Assembly (NCBI GenBank): GCA_041441465.1
Contig: JASDSY010000010.1
Coordinates: 105,883 to 169,882 of the forward strand
Reading direction: 5' to 3'
DNA length: 64,000 nt
Source of the DNA: Candidatus Wallbacteria bacterium
GTDB taxonomy: Bacteria; Muiribacteriota; UBA9980
Shown here: in pieces, positions 5,016 to 63,474 of the stretch
Layout of the letters: the number at the start of each line of letters is the position of its first letter
Numbering within the stretch: position 1 is the stretch's first letter
Program-made: the position numbers and the translations under genes
Notes under the pieces: generated by a model
Told to the model about the DNA's origin: nothing
Seen by the model: the letters and a program-made list of their open reading frames with translations, nothing else
Databases searched by the model: none

Positions 5016-5054
5016 TTTTTCACGTTTCATAAATAATCACAATTTTAACACTAA

Positions 5055-5082
5055 ACGGCCTTTTAACAGGCCGTTTTTTTTA
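5055..5082 (+). terminator. intrinsic terminator after the carbamate kinase gene
   Basis: stem acggcct / aggccgt with loop tttaac, followed by an 8-T run. Confidence 0.7.
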
Positions 5083-5123: not shown

Positions 5124-5411
5124 GGGGGAGTCAAAGGGCCAATGGCCCTCTAACTCCCCCTATTCCCCCCATAACTCCCGGCTATTTTTTCTTTGTTTAT
5201 TTTTAATTACCGCAAAGCGCGGACACTGTCCGCTTACTTTGCGGTAATTAAGCATTCGCGCAAAAATTTGCGCGATATGAAAATATAAGATAATATAACG
5301 AGCAGGCGCGGAGGCCTGCCGATAGACAGCAGTAAAGGTTCACGCTTATTTTATTTGATTGCCAGATACACGCAAAGCAAGTGGATACAATCCACGCTTT
5401 ACGTGTATATC
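5124..5411. repeat. cluster of five independent GC-rich hairpin palindromes in an otherwise AT-rich intergenic region
   Basis: hairpins at 5124-5160 (gggggagt...actccccc with inner agggcc/ggccct), 5203-5251 (ttaattaccgcaaag...ctttgcggtaattaa with inner gcggaca/tgtccgc), 5257-5274 (cgcgcaaa/tttgcgcg), 5302-5319 (gcaggc/gcctgc), 5365-5411 (gatacacgcaaagc...gctttacgtgtat with inner gtggat/atccac). Confidence 0.6.
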
Positions 5412-5444
5412 AGGATGGGTGGGGGTTTCAAGGAATTGTCAAAA

Positions 5445-5520
5445 AAGATTTTTTCGGGACCGCGTTCGAAAATCCTTCCGGGATTTTCGCCGCTTCCGAG
5501 ATGTCCCTGCAAAAATCTTT
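5445..5520 (+). repeat. structured intergenic element, copy A (second copy at 59611-59730)
   Basis: shares with copy B the blocks ttttttc-(g/a)ggg, hairpin aaaatcc-(t/a)tccg-ggatttt, ccgct and ccctgcaaaaat; closing helix gggac/gtccc. Confidence 0.5.
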
Positions 5521-5626
5521 TTTGACTCTAATATACATTCAATTTTTTAAAAGGTGTTTTATGAAATAAACTTTTTGATTAGCCTCTGACAAAAAAATTA
5601 AAAATGCGATGTTTTTTTTAAATATA

Positions 5627-8644: not shown

Positions 8645-8676
8645 AGATGCAATTTAAAAATCTGGAGGCATAATCA

Positions 8677-9177
8677 ATGGATTTTATAAAAAAAAGAACT
8701 AAAAATATATTAATAAGCATCATTGCGTTTTTACTTGTAAGTCCGGGTTTTATCGCCGATTATTTGTTTGCGCAAAATAATTTAGTCAATGAAAAAACGG
8801 AAGAAGTAAAGGCAAATAAAATGCCGCTGCCGGAACCGCCGGTTTACGGAATGCCGCCGACGCGTTTTGATCATAACATGCCGGGCCGCAATATTTCGGT
8901 TATAAGCGCCAGGCCGAAAGTCAAAAAGAGCTTTTCAGGAATAATAGTATCCGCCGGCTCAGAAACACCTCTTCCAGGAATGATATTAGAAATACAACAG
9001 CTCAACTCCAGGACAATTACGAGTAAAACCGGAGCTTTCAAATTTCAGGAGCTTTACGCCGAAAAAGATTCGGATAAATTTATCATGACAATAACCAACT
9101 CAGAAGACAGAAGCATTTGCCGGACGATGGAAATAGAGTTAACTAAAAGCGGCAGTACTATTGAAGTTTCATTATAA
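8677..9177 (+). CDS. small secreted protein, paralog 1, with C-terminal carboxypeptidase-regulatory-like beta-sandwich motif
   Basis: 166 aa; signal peptide KNILISIIAFLLVSPGF; C-terminal GIIVSAGSETPLPGMILEI...TGAFKF pattern; ends KSGSTIEVSL. Confidence 0.6.
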   Translation: MDFIKKRTKNILISIIAFLLVSPGFIADYLFAQNNLVNEKTEEVKANKMPLPEPPVYGMPPTRFDHNMPGRNISVISARPKVKKSFSGIIVSAGSETPLPGMILEIQQLNSRTITSKTGAFKFQELYAEKDSDKFIMTITNSEDRSICRTMEIELTKSGSTIEVSL

Positions 9178-9252: not shown

Positions 9253-9293
9253 GATTTTTAAAACAAAGCATTATGAAAAATTCGGAGGAAATC

Positions 9294-9749
9294 ATGATAG
9301 AATTTATAAAGATAAAAGCTAAAAATATGTTAATAAGCATTATAGCGTTTTTACTTGTAAGCCCGTGTTTACTGACCGATTATTTATTCGCCGGCGATTC
9401 GGCTTTAAAGGAAAAAGTAAATATGGCAAACGAAGATATGGCAGCCACTAAATATGGCGGCCCGGCAATGAATTTTGACGAAGATATAATATTGGAAAAA
9501 CTTGTAGAATTATTCGGCGTGGTTACATCAAAGGAAACGAAAAAACCTGTCGAAGGCATTATTATAAAAATCCAGGATTCAAAAGCAAAAGCTGTAACCG
9601 GTAAAGACGGCATGTTTAAATTCCCTCCATGCCCGCCCAGATTAAAAAAAGTTACACTGGAAGTAAAAGACGCCAAAGACGAAAAACTTCTGCAGACCAA
9701 AGAAGTGGAGCTTAAAAATGCCGGCTCTACAATCGAAATTTCACTTTAA
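9294..9749 (+). CDS. small secreted protein, paralog 2 (start moved to RBS-supported ATG)
   Basis: ORF track starts at 9273, but ggagg sits 6 nt upstream of the ATG at 9294, giving MIEFIKIKAKNMLISIIAFLLVSP parallel to paralog 1; ends NAGSTIEISL. Confidence 0.6.
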   Translation: MIEFIKIKAKNMLISIIAFLLVSPCLLTDYLFAGDSALKEKVNMANEDMAATKYGGPAMNFDEDIILEKLVELFGVVTSKETKKPVEGIIIKIQDSKAKAVTGKDGMFKFPPCPPRLKKVTLEVKDAKDEKLLQTKEVELKNAGSTIEISL

Positions 9750-45724: not shown

Positions 45725-45882
45725 AAAAAAGTAACGATATCTTCATAATAAAACTCGTTATCATAATAAACTTTTTTTCTATATTTATAGCATTCGGCGC
45801 CGGCTGCCAGGGTAACAAAGTCACCGACGCGAACATTATCAAACCAGTCCAGGCAAATGAATCAGCTTTCAGTTCAAAATAA
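45721..45882 (+). CDS. small hydrophobic protein (53 aa), candidate translationally coupled ORF
   Basis: ATG overlaps the epimerase stop (ATGA); encodes MKKSNDIFIIKLVIIINFFSIFIAFGAGCQ...; immediately followed by a terminator; below the ORF-track length cutoff. Confidence 0.3.
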   Translation: MKKSNDIFIIKLVIIINFFSIFIAFGAGCQGNKVTDANIIKPVQANESAFSSK

Positions 45883-45892
45883 AAATAAAAAA

Positions 45893-45923
45893 ACGGGCTA
45901 AATAAAAATAGCCCGTTTTTTTT
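45893..45923 (+). terminator. intrinsic terminator
   Basis: stem acgggcta / tagcccgt with loop aataaaaa, followed by an 8-T run. Confidence 0.7.
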
Positions 45924-46092
45924 GCGCATTTTTTAAAATTTACTTATTAATCCAAAAACAAATGGCAATATAAACTCTGTCTTTTTTATAAAATCAACAT
46001 TTACTTTATTTGTTCACAAGAAGAATGAGGACACATTTTTTTATTTCTTATTTTTATTTCTGATAAATTTCGAACTTATTACGATTTAATAT

Positions 46093-57760: not shown

Positions 57761-59602
57761 ATGTATGAAGACCCGCATAAAATCCTGCAGCAGCATTTCG
57801 GCTATTCTAAATTCAGGGATGGCCAGCAGGAAATAATTTCGGCGATTATTTCAGGGCGCGACGCTCTGGGAATAATGCCGACAGGCGCAGGAAAATCACT
57901 ATGTTTTCAAATTCCTGCGCTTATGTTCAAAGGAACCGTCATTGTTATTTCACCGCTTATTTCTCTTATGAAAGACCAGGTTGAAGCTCTCCGGCAGGCC
58001 GGGTTGCCGGCGGCATTCATTAACAGCACGCTCACGGGACGCGAACGCAAAGAAATAGAAAATGACGCTCTGGAAGGCAAGTACAAGTTAATTTACATGG
58101 CGCCGGAGCGGCTTGAAAATCCTGAATTTTTGAAATTCTTAAACGATATTTCGGTTTCAATGGTAACAGTCGATGAGGCGCACTGCGTATCGCAATGGGG
58201 CCATGATTTCCGCCCGAGTTATCTCAAAATACCCAATATGATTGAAATGTTAGCCCAAAAACCTATCATTTCAGCATTTACGGCAACCGCGACGCCTATA
58301 GTAAAAAATGATATCATGCAGCTGCTTAAGTTAAATAATCCCGTCACGGTAGTAACAGGTTTTGACCGAAAAAATTTATATTTCGAAGTGAACAAGCCTT
58401 CAAGCAAATCTGAATTCACGCTCGACTACGTCCGGAAGAATTCCGGCAAAAGCGGCATAATTTACTGCATTACGCGTAAATTAGTCGAAAGCGTATGCGA
58501 CATTTTAAATTCCAACGGCATCCCCGCCGTACGGTATCACGCAGGATTATCTCAGAAAGAAAGAAGCGAGGCGCAGGAAAAGTTCATTTTTGAAGACGCC
58601 GGAATAATCGTCGCCACTAATGCTTTCGGCATGGGTATCGATAAATCAAACGTCAGGTTCGTATTGCACTATAACATGCCTAAAAACATAGAAAGTTATT
58701 ATCAGGAAGCCGGCAGGGCCGGGCGCGACGGCGAAAAAGCAGAGTGCATATTGCTCTTTTCAGGCCAGGACATCATCATGAATAAATTTTTAATTGAAAA
58801 CAGCGACAGGGACAAAGAAAAAAGCGGAGGCGAGCGTTCCGATAAGAGCGGCGAACTGCGAAAACTTTCTCAAATGGTAGATTATTGTTCCACGACATCA
58901 TGCATAAGACGCTACGTACTGAATTATTTCGGCGAAAATCATACTTATGAAAGCTGCGGCAACTGCGGAAGCTGTTTAAGCGCCCCGGCGGAACTTACCG
59001 ACATGACCGAATGCTGCCGGAAAATACTTTCGTGCATAAAACTTATGGGCGAGCGTTTCGGCCGCACTTTCGTATCAGAGGTTTTGCGCGGCTCAAATCC
59101 CGAACGCTCCAGTGAATTCGGATTTAATAGACTTTCGGTATACGGCGCTTTAAAAGAATATTCACAGGATTTTATAAAAGACACCATCTCGGCGCTTGCG
59201 GATGCCGGATATATAAAAGTTGACAGCAGCCAGTATCAAACGCTTTCATTATCATTTAAAGCCCTTAACTCATTAAACACAGGCGAAAAAATATTAATAA
59301 AAGCCGCTGAAATTAAAAGTAAATCCAAAGCAAAGGCCAAAACTAAAACCGCGCCTCAAAGTGCCGGAGACAGCAATTTATTTGACAGGTTAAGGGCATT
59401 GCGACGCGATCTGGCTCTTAAGCAGCGAGTACCGCCTTATCTGATATTTTCAGATGCCGCATTAAACAGCATGTGCCAATTACTGCCTTCGACCGATGAA
59501 GATTTTTTAGAAGTCAACGGCGTGGGCAGGCGGAAGCTTGAACAATACGGCGAGATTTTTATGGATGAAATTAAGCAGTTTCAGGATTCAAAAAGAGGTT
59601 AG
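57761..59602 (+). CDS. recQ: ATP-dependent DNA helicase RecQ
   Basis: 613 aa; FGYSKFRDGQQEII start, Walker A MPTGAGKS, DEAH box VDEAHCVSQWGHDFRP, Zn-binding Cys cluster, C-terminal HRDC-like region. Confidence 0.85.
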   Translation: MYEDPHKILQQHFGYSKFRDGQQEIISAIISGRDALGIMPTGAGKSLCFQIPALMFKGTVIVISPLISLMKDQVEALRQAGLPAAFINSTLTGRERKEIENDALEGKYKLIYMAPERLENPEFLKFLNDISVSMVTVDEAHCVSQWGHDFRPSYLKIPNMIEMLAQKPIISAFTATATPIVKNDIMQLLKLNNPVTVVTGFDRKNLYFEVNKPSSKSEFTLDYVRKNSGKSGIIYCITRKLVESVCDILNSNGIPAVRYHAGLSQKERSEAQEKFIFEDAGIIVATNAFGMGIDKSNVRFVLHYNMPKNIESYYQEAGRAGRDGEKAECILLFSGQDIIMNKFLIENSDRDKEKSGGERSDKSGELRKLSQMVDYCSTTSCIRRYVLNYFGENHTYESCGNCGSCLSAPAELTDMTECCRKILSCIKLMGERFGRTFVSEVLRGSNPERSSEFGFNRLSVYGALKEYSQDFIKDTISALADAGYIKVDSSQYQTLSLSFKALNSLNTGEKILIKAAEIKSKSKAKAKTKTAPQSAGDSNLFDRLRALRRDLALKQRVPPYLIFSDAALNSMCQLLPSTDEDFLEVNGVGRRKLEQYGEIFMDEIKQFQDSKRG

Positions 59603-59610
59603 TGTGCCAG

Positions 59611-59730
59611 ATAATTTTTTCAGGGGACGCTGCTAAAAATCCATCCGGGATTTTTAACCGCTCGGTGCTCCGGCGCCTCTCACCCATCCATGGGTTCCGG
59701 CGCCTTCGCAACACCCCTGCAAAAATTTCT
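59611..59730 (+). repeat. structured intergenic element, copy B (copy A at 5445-5520)
   Basis: same blocks as copy A; closing helix cagggg/cccctg; extra nested hairpin ggcgcc-[cccat-cc-atggg]-ggcgcc inserted relative to copy A; begins 9 nt after the recQ stop. Confidence 0.5.
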
Positions 59731-60075
59731 GTCACACTGTTAAATATTCCGAAAAATAATTCACTTATCATCACTATTTCCACCTAAAGAATAAACTTTG
59801 TCTATCGTTATAATTTTTATCCCTAAAACGAACTTGTGAAAAATGTGGGTTCGCAATTGTTCCAGATTTAGAATGATAAATAAATTTATGCTAATATGAA
59901 GGATTAAGCAAAAGCCCCGCTGCCCGTTCTATTTCAATACTCTCTTATTCTCATCTCGCCGGGCGTTCGCAGAGCTTCGAAAAATAACATTAAATTATCA
60001 TAAACAATATAAACGCTACCATATCAACATTTTTTAAAAATCGATATTTTTTTATTTCAAATTTTAAAAAAATTG

Positions 60076-60084
60076 TGATATAAT
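60076..60084 (+). promoter_or_regulatory. extended -10 promoter element TGaTATAAT upstream of the PLD-SNF2 gene
   Basis: tgatataat 25 nt upstream of the ATG at 60109; RBS aaggag. Confidence 0.35.
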
Positions 60085-60108: not shown

Positions 60109-63100
60109 ATGCCTAAAATCTATGACAATATAGAAAATCAACTAACACGCGGATTAAACGAAACGCTTGAATTATCCAATAGAGCGGACTTTTGCGTTGG
60201 TTACTTCAATCTTAGAGGCTGGAAAGAAGTCGCAGAAAAGATTGAAAAACTTACCGGTTCTGAAATTCTTGAAGGAAAAAATGATGTTCACCGAATTTGT
60301 CGATTATTGGTCGGCATGCAAAAATTACCCGTTGATATACTACGTGAACATTTCGGCCAGGACGAAAATTACATAATTGACAACGCAGAAGCGGTTAAAA
60401 TCAGGAAACGATTAGCGCAAGAATTCAAAGATCAATTAACGATAGGCACACCTTCCGAATCTGATGAAAAAGCGTTACGTCTTCTAAGCAAACAAATGAA
60501 AGAAAACAAAGTAACCGTTAAGTTACACTTGCGTTATACGCTTCATGCTAAACTATATCTGGCTTACAGCGACGATAAACGCGTTCCCATAGTTGGTTTC
60601 CTTGGAAGCAGTAATCTTACGTTGGCCGGACTTGCCAGACAGGGTGAGCTAAATATTGATGTTATGGATCAGGACGCCGCCGGAAAGCTTGCCAAATGGT
60701 TTGACGACCGCTGGAGTGATCGGTGGTGTCTCGATATTACACAGGAACTTATTGAAATTATCGATAACAGTTGGGCCGCTGATAGGATTGTATCTCCGTA
60801 TCATATTTATCTGAAAATAGCATATCATCTTTCACGAGAAGCACGTGCAGGCATTAATGAATTTAAATTGCCTAAAGTTTTTCAAAGAGAATTACTTGAA
60901 TTTCAACAAAAAGCCGTTCTTGTTGCGGCACATCACCTTCATAAAAGGGGCGGCGTATTAATTGGCGATGTGGTTGGACTTGGAAAAACAATAACAGCTA
61001 CCGCGCTTGCAAAATTATTCGAAGATGATTTTTTTCTTGAAACGCTTATAATTTGTCCCAAAAATCTCGTTCCGATGTGGGAAGAATATGCTCACAAATA
61101 TCAAATTAGGGCTAAAATAATATCACAAAGTAAAGTTCAGAGTCTGCTTCCTAACATGAGACGATACAGACTTGTAATTATAGATGAAAGCCATAATCTT
61201 AGAAATGACGAAGGAAGTCGCTATCGCGCAATCAAATCATACCTTGAAGAAAATGAAAGCAAGGTTATTTTGCTATCTGCAACGCCATATAACAAATCAT
61301 ACCTTGATTTATCAAATCAACTGCGTCTTTTCATATCAGATGACAAAGATTTAGGAATAAGTCCTGAAAGATATATTGATGAAATTGGAGGACAGATTCA
61401 ATTTGGCGCAAAGCACACTGAAACGTTTATACGAAGCATTAAAGCATTTGAGAAAAGTCATTTTTCAGATGATTGGCGCGAACTTATGCGTTTATATTTA
61501 GTTAGACGTACAAGAAGCTTTATAAAAAACAACTACGCCGCAACCGATCCAGAAAATAATAGAAAGTATTTAACTTTCGCCGATGGCACTAAATCATATT
61601 TTCCCGACAGGCTTCCTCGAAGGGTTGAATATGCTTTTAATCCAGATGATCCCAAAGATCAATATGCCAAATTATATTCGCCTGAAATAGTTGACATAGT
61701 TAATTCACTAGAATTACCAAGATATGGATTGGGTAACTTTTTAACTCCCAATCCGATTATAAAACCTGACAAAAACGAAGAAGTAATAATTGAAAATCTT
61801 TCGCGAGCCGGAAAACGATTAATGGGTTTTTGTCGTACAAATCTTTTTAAAAGACTTGAAAGCAGCGGATATTCATTTCTTGTTTCACTTTGCCGTCATA
61901 TTTTACGCAATTATATTTTTATATTCGCGCTTCAGAATAAACTGCCAATTCCAATTGGAAATAATATATCGCAAAATTTAGATGAATTTCTCGAAGACAG
62001 CGATACTGACAACGACACCAGAGAAGAAAGGCAATTTAATTTTATACTTGACGAAAATGAATATTTAAAAAAAGCGGAAAATGTATATTACTCTATGTTA
62101 AATGAAAAGAACCGTTATGACTGGATAAAAAGTGAACTATTTATTTCATCACTTCAAAAAAAGCTAATTGACGATAGCCGTGAAATAATTAAAATATTAA
62201 AAAAGGGCTATAATTGGGCCCCTGAAGAAGACAGACAATTAAACGCGCTTCATCAACTTATTGCTAATACTCATGGCAATGAAAAGGTCCTTGTTTTCAC
62301 TCAGTTTGCCGATACCGCAAATTATCTTACAGACAATTTGAAAAAAAGAGGCGTCAAAAAAATCGAATGTGTAACCGGCGATTGTGAAAATCCAACACAT
62401 TTAGCGCATCGTTTCAGCCCAAGAAGCAATGGCAATAATGAAATAGCCAACACTTCCGACGAATTAAAAGTGCTTATTACAACTGATGTATTGAGCGAAG
62501 GGCAAAACTTGCAAGACGGCCACATAATTTTAAATTACGACCTTCCGTGGGCAATTATTCGTTTAATACAACGTGCGGGGCGTGTTGACCGAATAGGCCA
62601 GAAATCAGATAAAATAATTTGCTATTCATTTTTTCCAGAAGACGGCATCGAGCAAATAATTAACCTCAGAAGCAGGCTAAGAACACGCATTGAACAAAAC
62701 GCCGAAGTTGTCGGCTCGGATGAAACATTTTTCGACGGCGATCCTGTCAATCTTGAAGATTTATATAACGAACGTTCAGGAATTTTAGACGATGATGATG
62801 ACGACGGCGAAGTTGACCTTGCATCTTACGCTTATCAAATCTGGAAAAACGCTACCGACGCCGATCCATCGTTAAACAAAAAAATACCGGATTTGCCGAA
62901 TGTTATTTATTCAACTAAACAGAACAACAATAAGCCTGAAACCGAAGGTGTTATTTTATATACGCGAACTACGGATGAAAATGATGTATTGACATGGATT
63001 GATAAAAATGGAAAAATCATAACACAATCACAGCTGACTATTTTAAAAGCCGCTCAATGTCCTCCGGATGTGAAGGCTTTTTATAAAATAGAAAATCACC

Positions 63101-63474
63101 ACGACCTTGTAAAAAAAGGAATTGACTACATTCGCGAAGAAGAAAAAAATACTGGAACGTCATTGGGCAAAAAGACGGGTGTAAAGTATAGAGTTTATAT
63201 GCGTCTGGACAGATATTGCAAAGAAAACGAAGATACGCTATTCGTAACCGAGGAACTAAAGAAAGCCATTAATGACATTTATAAATTTCCGATGAAAGAA
63301 TTTGCGCGTGATACACTTAACAGACAATTGAAAGCCGGAATTTCTGATGAAATGCTTGCCGGGCTCGTTGTTTCACTGCGCGAAGATGATAAGCTGGTAA
63401 TAGTTAATGAAGATGAGATGCCAAACAGGCTTCCTCAAATTATTTGTTCACTTGGACTTAAAAATGGAGAATGA
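60109..63474 (+). CDS. PLD-like (HKD-type) nuclease domain fused to SNF2/DEXH-family helicase
   Basis: 1121 aa; N-terminal HKD-like segment HAKLYLAYSDD...GSSNLT; helicase motif I GDVVGLGKTITA, motif II LVIIDESHNLRN, helicase C motifs TDVLSEGQNLQD and QRAGRVDRIGQ. Confidence 0.8.
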   Translation: MPKIYDNIENQLTRGLNETLELSNRADFCVGYFNLRGWKEVAEKIEKLTGSEILEGKNDVHRICRLLVGMQKLPVDILREHFGQDENYIIDNAEAVKIRKRLAQEFKDQLTIGTPSESDEKALRLLSKQMKENKVTVKLHLRYTLHAKLYLAYSDDKRVPIVGFLGSSNLTLAGLARQGELNIDVMDQDAAGKLAKWFDDRWSDRWCLDITQELIEIIDNSWAADRIVSPYHIYLKIAYHLSREARAGINEFKLPKVFQRELLEFQQKAVLVAAHHLHKRGGVLIGDVVGLGKTITATALAKLFEDDFFLETLIICPKNLVPMWEEYAHKYQIRAKIISQSKVQSLLPNMRRYRLVIIDESHNLRNDEGSRYRAIKSYLEENESKVILLSATPYNKSYLDLSNQLRLFISDDKDLGISPERYIDEIGGQIQFGAKHTETFIRSIKAFEKSHFSDDWRELMRLYLVRRTRSFIKNNYAATDPENNRKYLTFADGTKSYFPDRLPRRVEYAFNPDDPKDQYAKLYSPEIVDIVNSLELPRYGLGNFLTPNPIIKPDKNEEVIIENLSRAGKRLMGFCRTNLFKRLESSGYSFLVSLCRHILRNYIFIFALQNKLPIPIGNNISQNLDEFLEDSDTDNDTREERQFNFILDENEYLKKAENVYYSMLNEKNRYDWIKSELFISSLQKKLIDDSREIIKILKKGYNWAPEEDRQLNALHQLIANTHGNEKVLVFTQFADTANYLTDNLKKRGVKKIECVTGDCENPTHLAHRFSPRSNGNNEIANTSDELKVLITTDVLSEGQNLQDGHIILNYDLPWAIIRLIQRAGRVDRIGQKSDKIICYSFFPEDGIEQIINLRSRLRTRIEQNAEVVGSDETFFDGDPVNLEDLYNERSGILDDDDDDGEVDLASYAYQIWKNATDADPSLNKKIPDLPNVIYSTKQNNNKPETEGVILYTRTTDENDVLTWIDKNGKIITQSQLTILKAAQCPPDVKAFYKIENHHDLVKKGIDYIREEEKNTGTSLGKKTGVKYRVYMRLDRYCKENEDTLFVTEELKKAINDIYKFPMKEFARDTLNRQLKAGISDEMLAGLVVSLREDDKLVIVNEDEMPNRLPQIICSLGLKNGE

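What the first reader, a model, noticed from the sequence alone, without database searches (positions are those of the whole stretch)
5445..5520. Two-copy structured intergenic element with base-pair-compatible changes (copy A)
Seen: positions 5445-5520 and 59611-59730 share an ordered set of blocks, namely a T-run plus C(G/A)GGG, a hairpin AAAATCC-(T/A)TCCG-GGATTTT, CCGCT, and CCCTGCAAAAAT. In copy A the outer helix is GGGAC/GTCCC; in copy B it is CAGGGG/CCCCTG, so the sequence differs but pairing is preserved. The internal hairpin keeps its stem while the loop differs by one base. Inference: conservation of pairing rather than sequence is the signature of a structured RNA (small RNA, cis-regulatory leader or terminator-associated element) rather than a protein-coding or purely DNA-level repeat. 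The overlapping small ORFs in the track (5359-5550, 5381-5569) are then probably spurious.
Basis: seen in the sequence. Interest (0 to 1): 0.62.

Follow-up and report, generated by a model that had tools for sequence, protein, structure and literature searches.

The report
Dispersed structured palindromic repeat family
The two look-alike intergenic hairpins are real, but they are two members (one of them truncated) of a many-copy family of strongly self-pairing repeats scattered through Wallbacteria genomes, a kind of element already known from other bacteria, and not a unique regulatory RNA gene; what the repeats do is still unknown.

Summary
Copy A (5438-5526) and copy B (59600-59739) are long imperfect palindromes: a 16-20 bp outer stem, a G/C helix, and an invariant hairpin AAAATCC-NTCC-GGGATTTT. 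Copy B carries one more GC hairpin.

A covariance model built without copy A finds it at E = 6.5e-16. The window holds no third copy.

The window comes from a Candidatus Wallbacteria MAG. Related MAGs carry at least 25 copies each. These sit at unrelated loci, often in tandem, often at contig ends, and once on a phage-like contig. Pairing is strongly supported: 96.6% of cells are paired, 28 of 43 pairs show compensatory changes, and 0 of 500 shuffles reach this. Almost all changes are Watson-Crick to Watson-Crick, which also occurs in DNA hairpin repeats (REPINs).

Copy A is a deletion derivative. recQ orthologues in relatives lack copy B.

No Rfam family reaches threshold. The architecture on the minus strand resembles the TwoAYGGAY motif, and the loops there read ANGGAN, the CsrA consensus.

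Verdict: a new, lineage-specific family of a known kind of dispersed structured repeat. RNA-level versus DNA-level action is unresolved. Interest is moderate to low.

The parts
5438..5526 (+). Copy A, the whole palindromic element. It is the truncated form and lacks hairpin A.
   Evidence: MFE fold; CM R1 hit at 67.4 bits, E 6.5e-16; alignment to the full-length relative L125.
5438..5453 (+). Copy A, outer stem P1, 5' arm (GTCAAAAAAGATTTTT). It pairs with 5511-5526.
   Evidence: 16 uninterrupted Watson-Crick pairs in the RNA and DNA folds.
5511..5526 (+). Copy A, outer stem P1, 3' arm (AAAAATCTTTTTTGAC).
5455..5460 (+). Copy A, helix P2, 5' side (CGGGAC). It pairs with 5503-5509 (GTCCCTG).
   Evidence: corresponds to the model's GGGG/CCCC helix.
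5467..5489 (+). Copy A, hairpin B (CGAAAATCC-TTCCG-GGATTTTCG). This is the invariant core of the family.
5490..5502 (+). Copy A, deletion junction (CCGCTT CCGAGAT). In the relative L125, about 43 nt carrying hairpin A lie between two C(A/G)CCGCTT direct repeats.
   Evidence: Alignment A3.
5527..5564 (+). 3' flank of copy A that travels with this subfamily (TCTAATATACATTCAATTTT...). It is also present next to the L125 copy at a non-orthologous locus.
   Evidence: blastn 84% over 77 nt; alignment.
59600..59739 (+). Copy B, the whole element in its standard two-hairpin form. Its first three bases are the recQ stop codon TAG.
   Evidence: Fold; CM 113 bits; ORF end at 59602.
59600..59619 (+). Copy B, outer stem P1, 5' arm (TAGTGTG-C-CAGA-T-AATTTTT). 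It pairs with 59721-59739.
59721..59739 (+). Copy B, outer stem P1, 3' arm (AAAAATTTCTG-T-CACACTG).
59621..59626 (+). Copy B, helix P2, 5' side (CAGGGG). It pairs with CCCCTG at 59714-59719.
59634..59656 (+). Copy B, hairpin B (TAAAAATCC-ATCCG-GGATTTTTA).
59663..59713 (+). Copy B, branch P4-P5-hairpin A. P4 is CG.TGC / GCA.AC. P5 is GGCGCC (59672-59677) paired with GGCGCC (59699-59704). The tip is ACCC-ATCCAT-GGGT (59682-59695). On the minus strand the loop reads AUGGAU.
5355..5569 (+). Small ORFs that overlap copy A (5355-5525, 5359-5550, 5381-5569). Judged spurious.
   Evidence: They run through the palindrome. Across 26 copies, 48 of 78 + strand frames are open in all three registers, so no reading frame is conserved.

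Best explanation
Copies A and B are two members of a lineage-specific family of dispersed, non-coding, highly structured palindromic repeats in Candidatus Wallbacteria. They are the same kind of element as REP/REPIN/BIME-type repeats and the multi-copy TwoAYGGAY motif.

Each element has:
- a long closing stem (P1);
- a short G/C helix (P2);
- a junction that carries an invariant hairpin B, plus 0 to 3 or more further GC hairpin modules.

The element has a polarity. All tip loops read (N)UCC on one strand and GGA on the other.

Shown:
- The family spreads or is reshuffled as DNA. Copies are found at new loci, in tandem clusters, with module gain and loss, and as truncated forms such as copy A.
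- Pairing is maintained in every helix.

Inferred:
- Pairing is kept because a single-stranded form must fold. That form could be an ssDNA intermediate of copying, as in REPIN or IS200/IS605-type systems, or the transcript.
- The invariant hairpin B is the site that a trans-acting protein recognises.
- The two window copies are therefore not dedicated regulators of arcC, recQ or their neighbours.
For: Organism: the window's RecQ is 100% identical to a protein named Candidatus Wallbacteria.

Multi-copy and dispersed:
- The 19-mer scan returned 118 loci.
- CM R1 finds 55 hits in 246 kb from five Wallbacteria-type MAGs. At least about 25 are in ADurb.Bin243 and at least about 24 in JPNA_metabat.86.
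- Copies in different genomes share only the element, not the flanks.
- One strong copy (133 bits) lies on an IMG/VR contig that carries a phage tail chaperone gene.
- Tandem pairs lie 170-260 bp apart.

Repeat in the window's own species: independent assemblies of that species end inside copy B and inside copy A. At least 8 other hits are cut by contig ends.

Not locus-conserved at depth: four recQ orthologues (72-79% amino-acid identity) have 18-87 nt after recQ and no element.

Turnover: two MAGs whose flanks are 90-98% identical keep elements at the same loci, but the interiors are remodelled.

Copy A is a deletion derivative between CCGCTT direct repeats.

Modular size classes: the distance from hairpin B to the 3' arm is 17, about 56, about 110, about 164 or 224 nt.

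Structure:
- 97.4% of cells paired and 16 of 43 pairs compensatory in the 26-sequence alignment.
- 96.6% paired and 28 of 43 compensatory in the 44-sequence alignment.
- 0 of 500 shuffles reach this, and slid controls give 32-58% paired.

G-U pairs are rare: 33 of 1801 cells.

REPINs are documented to show compensatory changes in a DNA hairpin and to form tandem clusters (PMC3116915).
Against: - No transposase or RAYT gene was found. No protein family recurs next to the copies.
- No target-site duplication and no conserved terminal inverted repeat is seen. The outermost stem is the most variable part. The means of spread is therefore unknown.
- The window itself holds only two copies.
- Gene-proximal copies show a strict orientation. 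Ten of ten copies lying 113 nt or less after a verified gene end are in the sense (+) orientation. This points to an interaction with transcription and hence to some RNA-level effect.
- G-T exceeds A-C on the + strand, 33 versus 14 cells. This also leans weakly towards RNA.
Confidence: 0.72

Rival explanations
1. The functional product is the minus-strand RNA: a TwoAYGGAY-like RNA whose hairpin loops bind CsrA/Rsm proteins. Depending on context it would act as a decoy, a sponge or a cis site. The variable number of GGA hairpins would work like the repeated hairpins of CsrB/RsmZ. This is compatible with the element also being a dispersed repeat.
For: - On the minus strand, the hairpin-A loop reads A-N-G-G-A-(U/G) in 23 of 26 copies. 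Position 2 varies freely while A, G, G and A are fixed: AUGGAU 9, AGGGAU 5, ACGGAG 3, AAGGAU 3, AGGGAG 3.
- This is the ANGGAN hexaloop on a G-rich stem that RsmA and RsmN recognise. AAGGAU is the loop of RsmZ hairpin 2 (PMC3791407).
- The hairpin-B loop reads CGGA(G/U).
- The extra modules of the long forms also carry AUGGAC loops.
- The only Rfam hit is copy A on the minus strand to RF01731 TwoAYGGAY, at E 0.02.
- TwoAYGGAY has a very long P1 and two such loops and is multi-copy. It has been proposed to bind CsrA (PMC4333381).
- Wallbacteria are listed among the phyla that have flagellins. From general knowledge, CsrA usually accompanies FliW and flagellar genes outside the Gammaproteobacteria.
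Against: - The Rfam score of 26.5 bits is below the gathering score of 43. Copy B and 11 other loci give no TwoAYGGAY hit.
- Orientation and wobble evidence favour the other strand. Gene-proximal copies are 10 of 10 in the orientation that puts UCC, not GGA, into the mRNA. G-T exceeds A-C on the + strand.
- No promoter or terminator defines a minus-strand transcript.
- No csrA gene was seen in the sampled DNA.
- Copy A keeps only one hairpin.
Confidence: 0.2
2. The functional product is the + strand RNA carried in the 3' UTR or in the intercistronic part of the upstream gene's mRNA. There the long hairpin would block 3' exonucleases, would be cut by RNase III, or would end transcription in a non-canonical way, as REP/BIME and ERIC elements do.
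For: - Ten of ten copies within 113 nt after a verified stop codon are in the sense orientation. The upstream genes are recQ, ddl, two histidine kinase genes, glnA, an MFS transporter gene and others.
- Copy B starts at the recQ stop codon, and no canonical terminator follows recQ.
- G-T outnumbers A-C on this strand.
- Family 2 has a copy between mutS and mutL.
Against: - Copy A lies about 360 nt downstream of a good canonical terminator at 5053-5076.
- About a third of copies with both neighbours called are antisense to both (7 versus 14).
- No U-run follows any stem directly, so it is not an intrinsic terminator.
- The sequence invariance of hairpin B and the fixed UCC loops are not needed for a simple stability element.
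- The orientation bias could instead come from selection against GGA/SD-like loops inside mRNAs.
Confidence: 0.2
3. A classical MITE: a deletion derivative of a DDE-transposase insertion sequence, moved by cut-and-paste through its terminal inverted repeats.
For: Its size (90-250 bp), inverted ends, multi-copy dispersal and intergenic location fit.
Against: - The outermost stem is the most variable part and the inner hairpin the most conserved. This is the reverse of what transposase-bound ends would show.
- No flanking direct repeats were seen in the six copies inspected: window A and B, L083, L095, L111 and L125.
- Internal helices covary too.
- No parent IS or transposase is present in the sampled loci.
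Confidence: 0.05
4. A dedicated two-copy small RNA or a cis-regulatory leader of the adjacent genes.
For: Strong folds and covariation. Copy A lies 140 nt upstream of the next gene.
Against: - Dozens of copies lie next to unrelated genes.
- It is absent at the orthologous recQ locus.
- Copy A is truncated.
- No Rfam family matches.
- No promoter or terminator pairs are found.
Confidence: 0.03

Closest known systems
TwoAYGGAY RNA motif (Rfam RF01731; Weinberg et al. 2010, PMC2864571)
   Same: - A closing P1 stem that is often very long (about 24 bp).
- P1 encloses hairpins whose terminal loops read AYGGAY on one strand.
- Several copies per genome, as in Psychromonas ingrahamii.
- Not tied to particular genes, and function unknown.
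It is the only Rfam family that gives any signal: copy A on the minus strand, 26.5 bits.
   Different: - The score is below the family's gathering score, and copy B and the other copies are not detected at all.
- One loop is CGGAN rather than AYGGAY.
- Hairpin A sits on an extra covarying helix.
- The number of hairpins varies from 1 to 4 or more.
- The host phylum is different.
- Orientation evidence here favours the opposite strand.
REPINs / REP-BIME elements mobilised by RAYT (Bertels & Rainey 2011, PMC3116915)
   Same: - Extragenic, tens of copies per genome.
- A long hairpin kept by compensatory changes.
- Tandem clusters with flanking modules.
- A mosaic with other palindromes.
- Persistence at a locus between close relatives.
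   Different: - It is not built from two inverted REP units. The internal hairpins share one polarity.
- No GTAG-type REP motif is present.
- No RAYT gene has been found so far.
- It is larger and branched (a three-way junction).
ERIC/IRU, Correia (NEMIS), RUP/BOX and other MITE-like bacterial repeats (from general knowledge)
   Same: Imperfect palindromes of 100-200 bp in intergenic regions, co-transcribed with neighbouring genes, able to fold as RNA and to affect mRNA fate.
   Different: No conserved terminal inverted repeats or target duplications. There is no sequence similarity: no match in the plasmid or phage collections and none in Rfam.
CsrB/RsmY/RsmZ-type CsrA-sequestering sRNAs
   Same: Repeated GC-stem hairpins with ANGGAN loops on the minus strand, in variable number.
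   Different: Those are single-copy genes with their own promoter and terminator. Here there are dozens of dispersed copies without recognisable transcription signals, and the strand evidence points the other way.

Membership tests
TwoAYGGAY (RF01731) | Scores at or above Rfam's gathering score (43 bits) with the family model | tested here: not met
   Copy A on the minus strand scores 26.5 bits, E 0.02. Copy B gives no hit at E<=10. There is no hit in 15 + 11 related loci.
TwoAYGGAY (RF01731) | Two terminal loops that carry AYGGAY | tested here: inconclusive
   On the minus strand of copy B, loop A is AUGGAU (met) and loop B is CCGGAUG (CGGAU, first position not A). Across the family, loop A is ANGGAK and loop B is CGGAG or CGGAU. 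Copy A has one hairpin only.
TwoAYGGAY (RF01731) | Closing P1 stem, often very large (about 24 bp) | tested here: met
   16 bp in A and about 18 bp with bulges in B.
REPIN/REP (RAYT-dependent) | Two REP palindromes in inverted orientation that form the hairpin | tested here: not met
   The arms of P1 are inverted. The internal hairpins A and B both show UCC on the same strand, so they are not inverted copies of each other.
REPIN/REP (RAYT-dependent) | A RAYT (Y1/HUH) gene flanked by the repeats | tested here: inconclusive
Whole genomes were not available.
REPIN/REP (RAYT-dependent) | High copy number, extragenic, hairpin with compensatory changes, tandem clusters | tested here: met
.
MITE (DDE transposon derivative) | Conserved terminal inverted repeats bound by the transposase | tested here: not met
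   The outer ends differ between copies (GTCAAAAAAGA, GTGTGCCAGATAA, GGGTGCCAAAGAA, GGTAACAAAAAA, GGGCGCCAGACAA), while the inner hairpin is invariant.
MITE (DDE transposon derivative) | Target-site duplication that flanks each copy | tested here: not met
   No matching direct repeats were seen at the ends of six inspected copies. No empty site was available to fix the exact ends.
CsrA-sequestering sRNA (CsrB/RsmZ type) | Several ANGGAN motifs presented in hairpin loops | tested here: met
   Met on the minus strand only. The consensus comes from PMC3791407.
CsrA-sequestering sRNA (CsrB/RsmZ type) | A discrete transcript with its own promoter and terminator; csrA present in the genome | not testable with these tools
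   The consensus scans found no suitable signals. csrA was not in the sampled DNA. No transcript data and no whole genome were available.
Intrinsic (Rho-independent) terminator | G+C-rich stem followed at once by a U-run | tested here: not met
   The scan found none at copy B. At copy A, the canonical terminator is elsewhere, at 5053-5076. In the elements, an A-run separates the GC helix from the T-run.

The most novel reading that the evidence does not exclude
The repeats form a cross-phylum class of mobile modules that scatter ready-made CsrA-type (ANGGAN) hairpins through a genome. The class would include this Wallbacteria family, the second family around the same 19-nt hairpin in a Clostridiales MAG, and the Rfam TwoAYGGAY motif. 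Whichever transcripts read through a copy on the GGA strand would gain a CsrA site, or would add to a dispersed CsrA sponge. The number of hairpins changes quickly through module gain and loss. The strict sense orientation of copies just after genes would then reflect selection against placing such sites in those mRNAs.
Probability: 0.12. Interest if true: 0.7.

Novelty: new variant of a known kind. Interest (0 to 1): 0.38.

Why it matters
If the main reading holds, the result is chiefly practical.
- These hairpins should be annotated as a repeat family, not as sRNA genes or small ORFs.
- They explain contig breaks in Wallbacteria assemblies.
- The covariance model built here can mask or count them.

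It is also a clear worked example that strong compensatory covariation does not by itself separate structured RNAs from DNA hairpin repeats.

The less likely reading would be of real interest. In it, a mobile repeat distributes protein-binding (ANGGAN) hairpins. That would give the long-unexplained TwoAYGGAY motif a testable function, and it would show a way for post-transcriptional regulons to be rewired by repeat spread.

Tried and rejected
- Rfam over the whole window at gathering thresholds: nothing. Rfam at permissive thresholds on both copies and on 26 related loci: only one sub-threshold TwoAYGGAY hit, plus chance miRNA and leader hits.
- tRNA/tmRNA scan: none.
- Extra copies in the window with the CM, filters off: none. 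The weak hits at 45877-45933 are an ordinary bidirectional terminator.
- Strand assignment from G-U versus A-C: a weak + bias only, 8 versus 4 and 17 versus 12 columns. Family 2 shows none, 14 versus 10.
- GC skew of the window: uninformative.
- Transposase and CsrA search by tblastn: nothing. A weak RayT-like hit in L021 turned out to lie inside mutL.
- Recurrent neighbouring protein families: only large paralogous families and spurious ORFs that run through the repeats.
- Plasmid and phage collections: no match.
- The idea that the variable outer stem is a target hairpin (for example a terminator) into which the element inserts: rejected. The same outer stem travels with copy A's relative at a non-orthologous locus.
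- An exact look-up of the window's RecQ by DNA reference failed. The protein id P0001 worked.

Full report
1. THE OBSERVATION

The elements extend further than reported.

Copy A spans 5438-5526.
- A perfect 16-bp outer stem: GTCAAAAAAGATTTTT / AAAAATCTTTTTTGAC.
- A short helix: GGGAC / GTCCC.
- The hairpin CGAAAATCC-TTCCG-GGATTTTCG.

Copy B spans 59600-59739.
- An outer stem of about 18 bp with three bulges.
- The helix CAGGGG / CCCCTG.
- The same hairpin with one loop base changed.
- A second branch that ends in ACCC-ATCCAT-GGGT.

Both strands fold far better than shuffled controls, with z from -5.2 to -7.3 and 0 of 200 shuffles as good.

The real double substitutions between A and B lie in the outer stem.

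A covariance model (R1) built from 26 family members that did not include copy A finds copy A at 67.4 bits, E = 6.5e-16. With filters off it finds nothing else in the 64 kb.

2. WHAT IT BELONGS TO

The window's RecQ is 100% identical to a protein deposited as Candidatus Wallbacteria.

About a third belong to one family, about 80% identical to copy B. It occurs in:
- the MAGs ADurb.Bin243 and JPNA_metabat.86;
- Candidatus Wallbacteria GWC2_49_35;
- two unnamed MAGs.

R1 finds 55 hits in 246 kb of these loci. A metagenome scan added four more contigs.

How the copies are placed:
- They lie next to unrelated genes, and copies in different genomes share only the element.
- They often occur as tandem pairs 170-260 bp apart.
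- At least eight are cut by contig ends.
- Two independent assemblies of the window's own species break inside copy B and inside copy A. Assemblers do this at repeats, so the source genome very likely holds further copies.
- One strong copy sits on an IMG/VR contig with a phage tail chaperone gene.

3. STRUCTURE AND COVARIATION

RNAalifold on the 26-sequence alignment gives 43 pairs in six helices:
- the outer stem P1;
- P2;
- hairpin B with a small supporting helix;
- a branch P4-P5-hairpin A.

Sixteen pairs show compensatory double changes. The counts are as follows.

| Measure | 26-sequence alignment | 44-sequence model-fitted alignment |
|---|---|---|
| Cells paired | 97.4% | 96.6% |
| Same, with 3' partners slid by 1-3 columns | 32-58% | 37.1-57.3% |
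| Pairs with compensatory changes | 16 of 43 | 28 of 43 |
| Shuffles reaching the observed values | 0 of 500 (12 of 500 for the count of further pair types) | 0 of 500 |

Pairing is therefore under constraint.

The changes are almost entirely Watson-Crick to Watson-Crick. G-T pairs are 33 of 1801 cells and A-C pairs 14. P5 alone shows ten different perfectly paired hexamer versions with hardly any intermediates.

The most conserved part is the sequence of hairpin B. The most variable part is the outer end of P1.

4. POLARITY

On the other strand the hairpin-A loop is A-N-G-G-A-(U/G) in 23 of 26 copies, with the second position free. The hairpin-B loop is CGGA(G/U). The element is therefore not a symmetric double-strand palindrome. 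One strand, as RNA or as ssDNA, is read.

5. DYNAMICS

The elements come in size classes. The distance from hairpin B to the 3' arm is 17, about 56, about 110, about 164 or 224 nt. The steps correspond to added GC hairpin modules.

Copy A is the only member of the 17-nt class. Metagenome contig L125 carries a copy that is 96.6% identical over the 5' half, with the same 3' arm and 3' flank, but with hairpin A present. The difference is a deletion of about 43 nt between two C(A/G)CCGCTT direct repeats. L125 is not the orthologous locus, because no flanking protein similarity was found.

Four recQ orthologues at 72-79% amino-acid identity have only 18-87 nt after recQ and no element.

ADurb.Bin243 and JPNA_metabat.86 have flanks 90-98% identical. 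They keep elements at the same loci, but the interiors are remodelled. At one locus, two tandem standard copies in one genome correspond to a single 247-nt form in the other.

6. ORIENTATION AND TRANSCRIPTION SIGNALS

With rough ORF calls:
- 14 copies are co-directional with both neighbours and 7 are antisense to both;
- 3 lie between divergent genes and 1 between convergent genes.

Every copy that lies 113 nt or less after the stop codon of a verified gene is in the sense orientation. That is ten of ten, after recQ, ddl, two histidine kinase genes, glnA, an MFS transporter gene and others. Antisense copies lie at least 317 nt from a gene end, apart from one doubtful ORF.

Copy B begins with the recQ stop codon, and no canonical terminator follows recQ. 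Copy A lies about 360 nt beyond a canonical terminator and 140 nt before the next gene. No element has a U-run directly after a GC stem, so none is an intrinsic terminator.

7. COMPARISON WITH KNOWN FAMILIES

Rfam 15 gives no hit at gathering thresholds in the window or in 15 related loci. At permissive thresholds the only meaningful signal is copy A, minus strand, against RF01731 TwoAYGGAY. It scores 26.5 bits against a gathering score of 43, E = 0.02. Copy B and 11 other loci give nothing.

The discoverers describe TwoAYGGAY as follows:
- two hairpins with AYGGAY loops;
- closed by a P1 that is 'often very large (e.g., 24 base pairs)';
- several copies in Psychromonas ingrahamii in their alignment.

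It has been proposed to bind CsrA (PMC4333381). The architecture is the same as ours on the minus strand, but membership by score is not met.

The ANGGAN hexaloop on a G-rich stem is the RsmA/RsmN recognition motif (PMC3791407).

REPINs share several features: extragenic location, copy number, a hairpin with compensatory changes, and tandem clusters (PMC3116915).

Classical MITE features are not met: there are no conserved terminal inverted repeats and no target duplications.

8. INTERPRETATION

Shown: the two loci are members, one truncated, of a dispersed, non-coding, strongly structured, polar repeat family that is specific to the Wallbacteria lineage and evolves by module gain and loss.

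Inferred:
- Pairing is kept because a single-stranded form has to fold.
- Hairpin B is a protein recognition site.

I rank the plain dispersed-repeat reading first (0.72). Two RNA-level readings, both compatible with it, stay open at about 0.2 each:
- a minus-strand RNA that presents CsrA-type loops;
- a + strand 3'-UTR structure.

The evidence is divided. The loop consensus speaks for the minus strand. The orientation of gene-proximal copies and the small G-U excess speak for the + strand. Alternatively, they reflect selection against GGA loops inside mRNAs.

The small ORFs that cross the elements are composition artefacts.

9. NOVELTY AND VERDICT

The family is not in Rfam, and I found no description of it. 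The kind of element is well known. It is best called a new variant of a known kind. The interest is moderate to low unless the CsrA-module reading is confirmed.

Noticed in passing
window 5200-5250 and 5418-5430: A 49-nt near-perfect palindrome (TTAATTACCGCAAAGCGCGGACACTGTCCGCTTACTTTGCGGTAATTAA) and a G-rich motif (GGTGGGGGTTTCA) lie in the same intergenic region as copy A. Both recur beside the copy-A-like element of metagenome contig L125, in a different order and next to unrelated genes. The region is therefore a mosaic of modules that travel together.
   Followed up: partly
window 59600-59602: The recQ stop codon TAG forms the first three bases of the outer stem of copy B. No canonical terminator follows recQ before the promoter-like site at 60056-60084.
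   Followed up: partly
L006, L041, L062, L001 and others (ADurb.Bin243) and L025, L101 (JPNA_metabat.86): In these MAGs the element is embedded in a composite repeat of about 700 bp. It has an upstream part of about 80 nt, 1-2 elements about 240 bp apart, and a downstream part of about 450 nt. The downstream part holds the GC palindrome GCGCAGACGCGCGCGTGCGCGCGTCTGC and a second hairpin followed by an A-run. A same-strand gene often starts 490-560 nt after the element.
   Followed up: partly
L002, L013, L020-L023, L091 and others (Clostridiales MAG CTOTU40347); L089, L102, L036: A second multi-copy palindromic family is built around the same 19-nt hairpin (AAAATCCGTCCGGGATTTT), with at least 35 copies in one genome. 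It has its own 24-bp outer stem in at least two covarying versions. One copy lies between mutS and mutL.
   Followed up: partly
L129:4752-4886: A strong family copy (133 bits) lies on an IMG/VR 'viral' contig, downstream of a gene block that includes a phage tail assembly chaperone.
   Followed up: partly
L025:812-1058: Some long forms contain hairpins with ATGGAT loops on the + strand (GACATGGATGTC, GCCATGGATGGC). These are modules in the opposite polarity nested inside an element.
   Followed up: no
window 60109-63474: A 1121-aa protein that combines a PLD-type nuclease domain with an SNF2/DEAD helicase lies directly downstream of copy B. It may be a defence or restriction-like gene.
   Followed up: no
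window 8656-8771 and 9276-9391: A 116-nt direct repeat, 78% identical, lies inside two adjacent small ORFs (8677-9177 and 9273-9749). They are probably tandem paralogues.
   Followed up: no
window 5053-5076 and 45887-45921: Two ordinary intrinsic terminators. The first follows the amino-acid-kinase gene. The second is bidirectional and accounts for the weak covariance-model hits there.
   Followed up: yes
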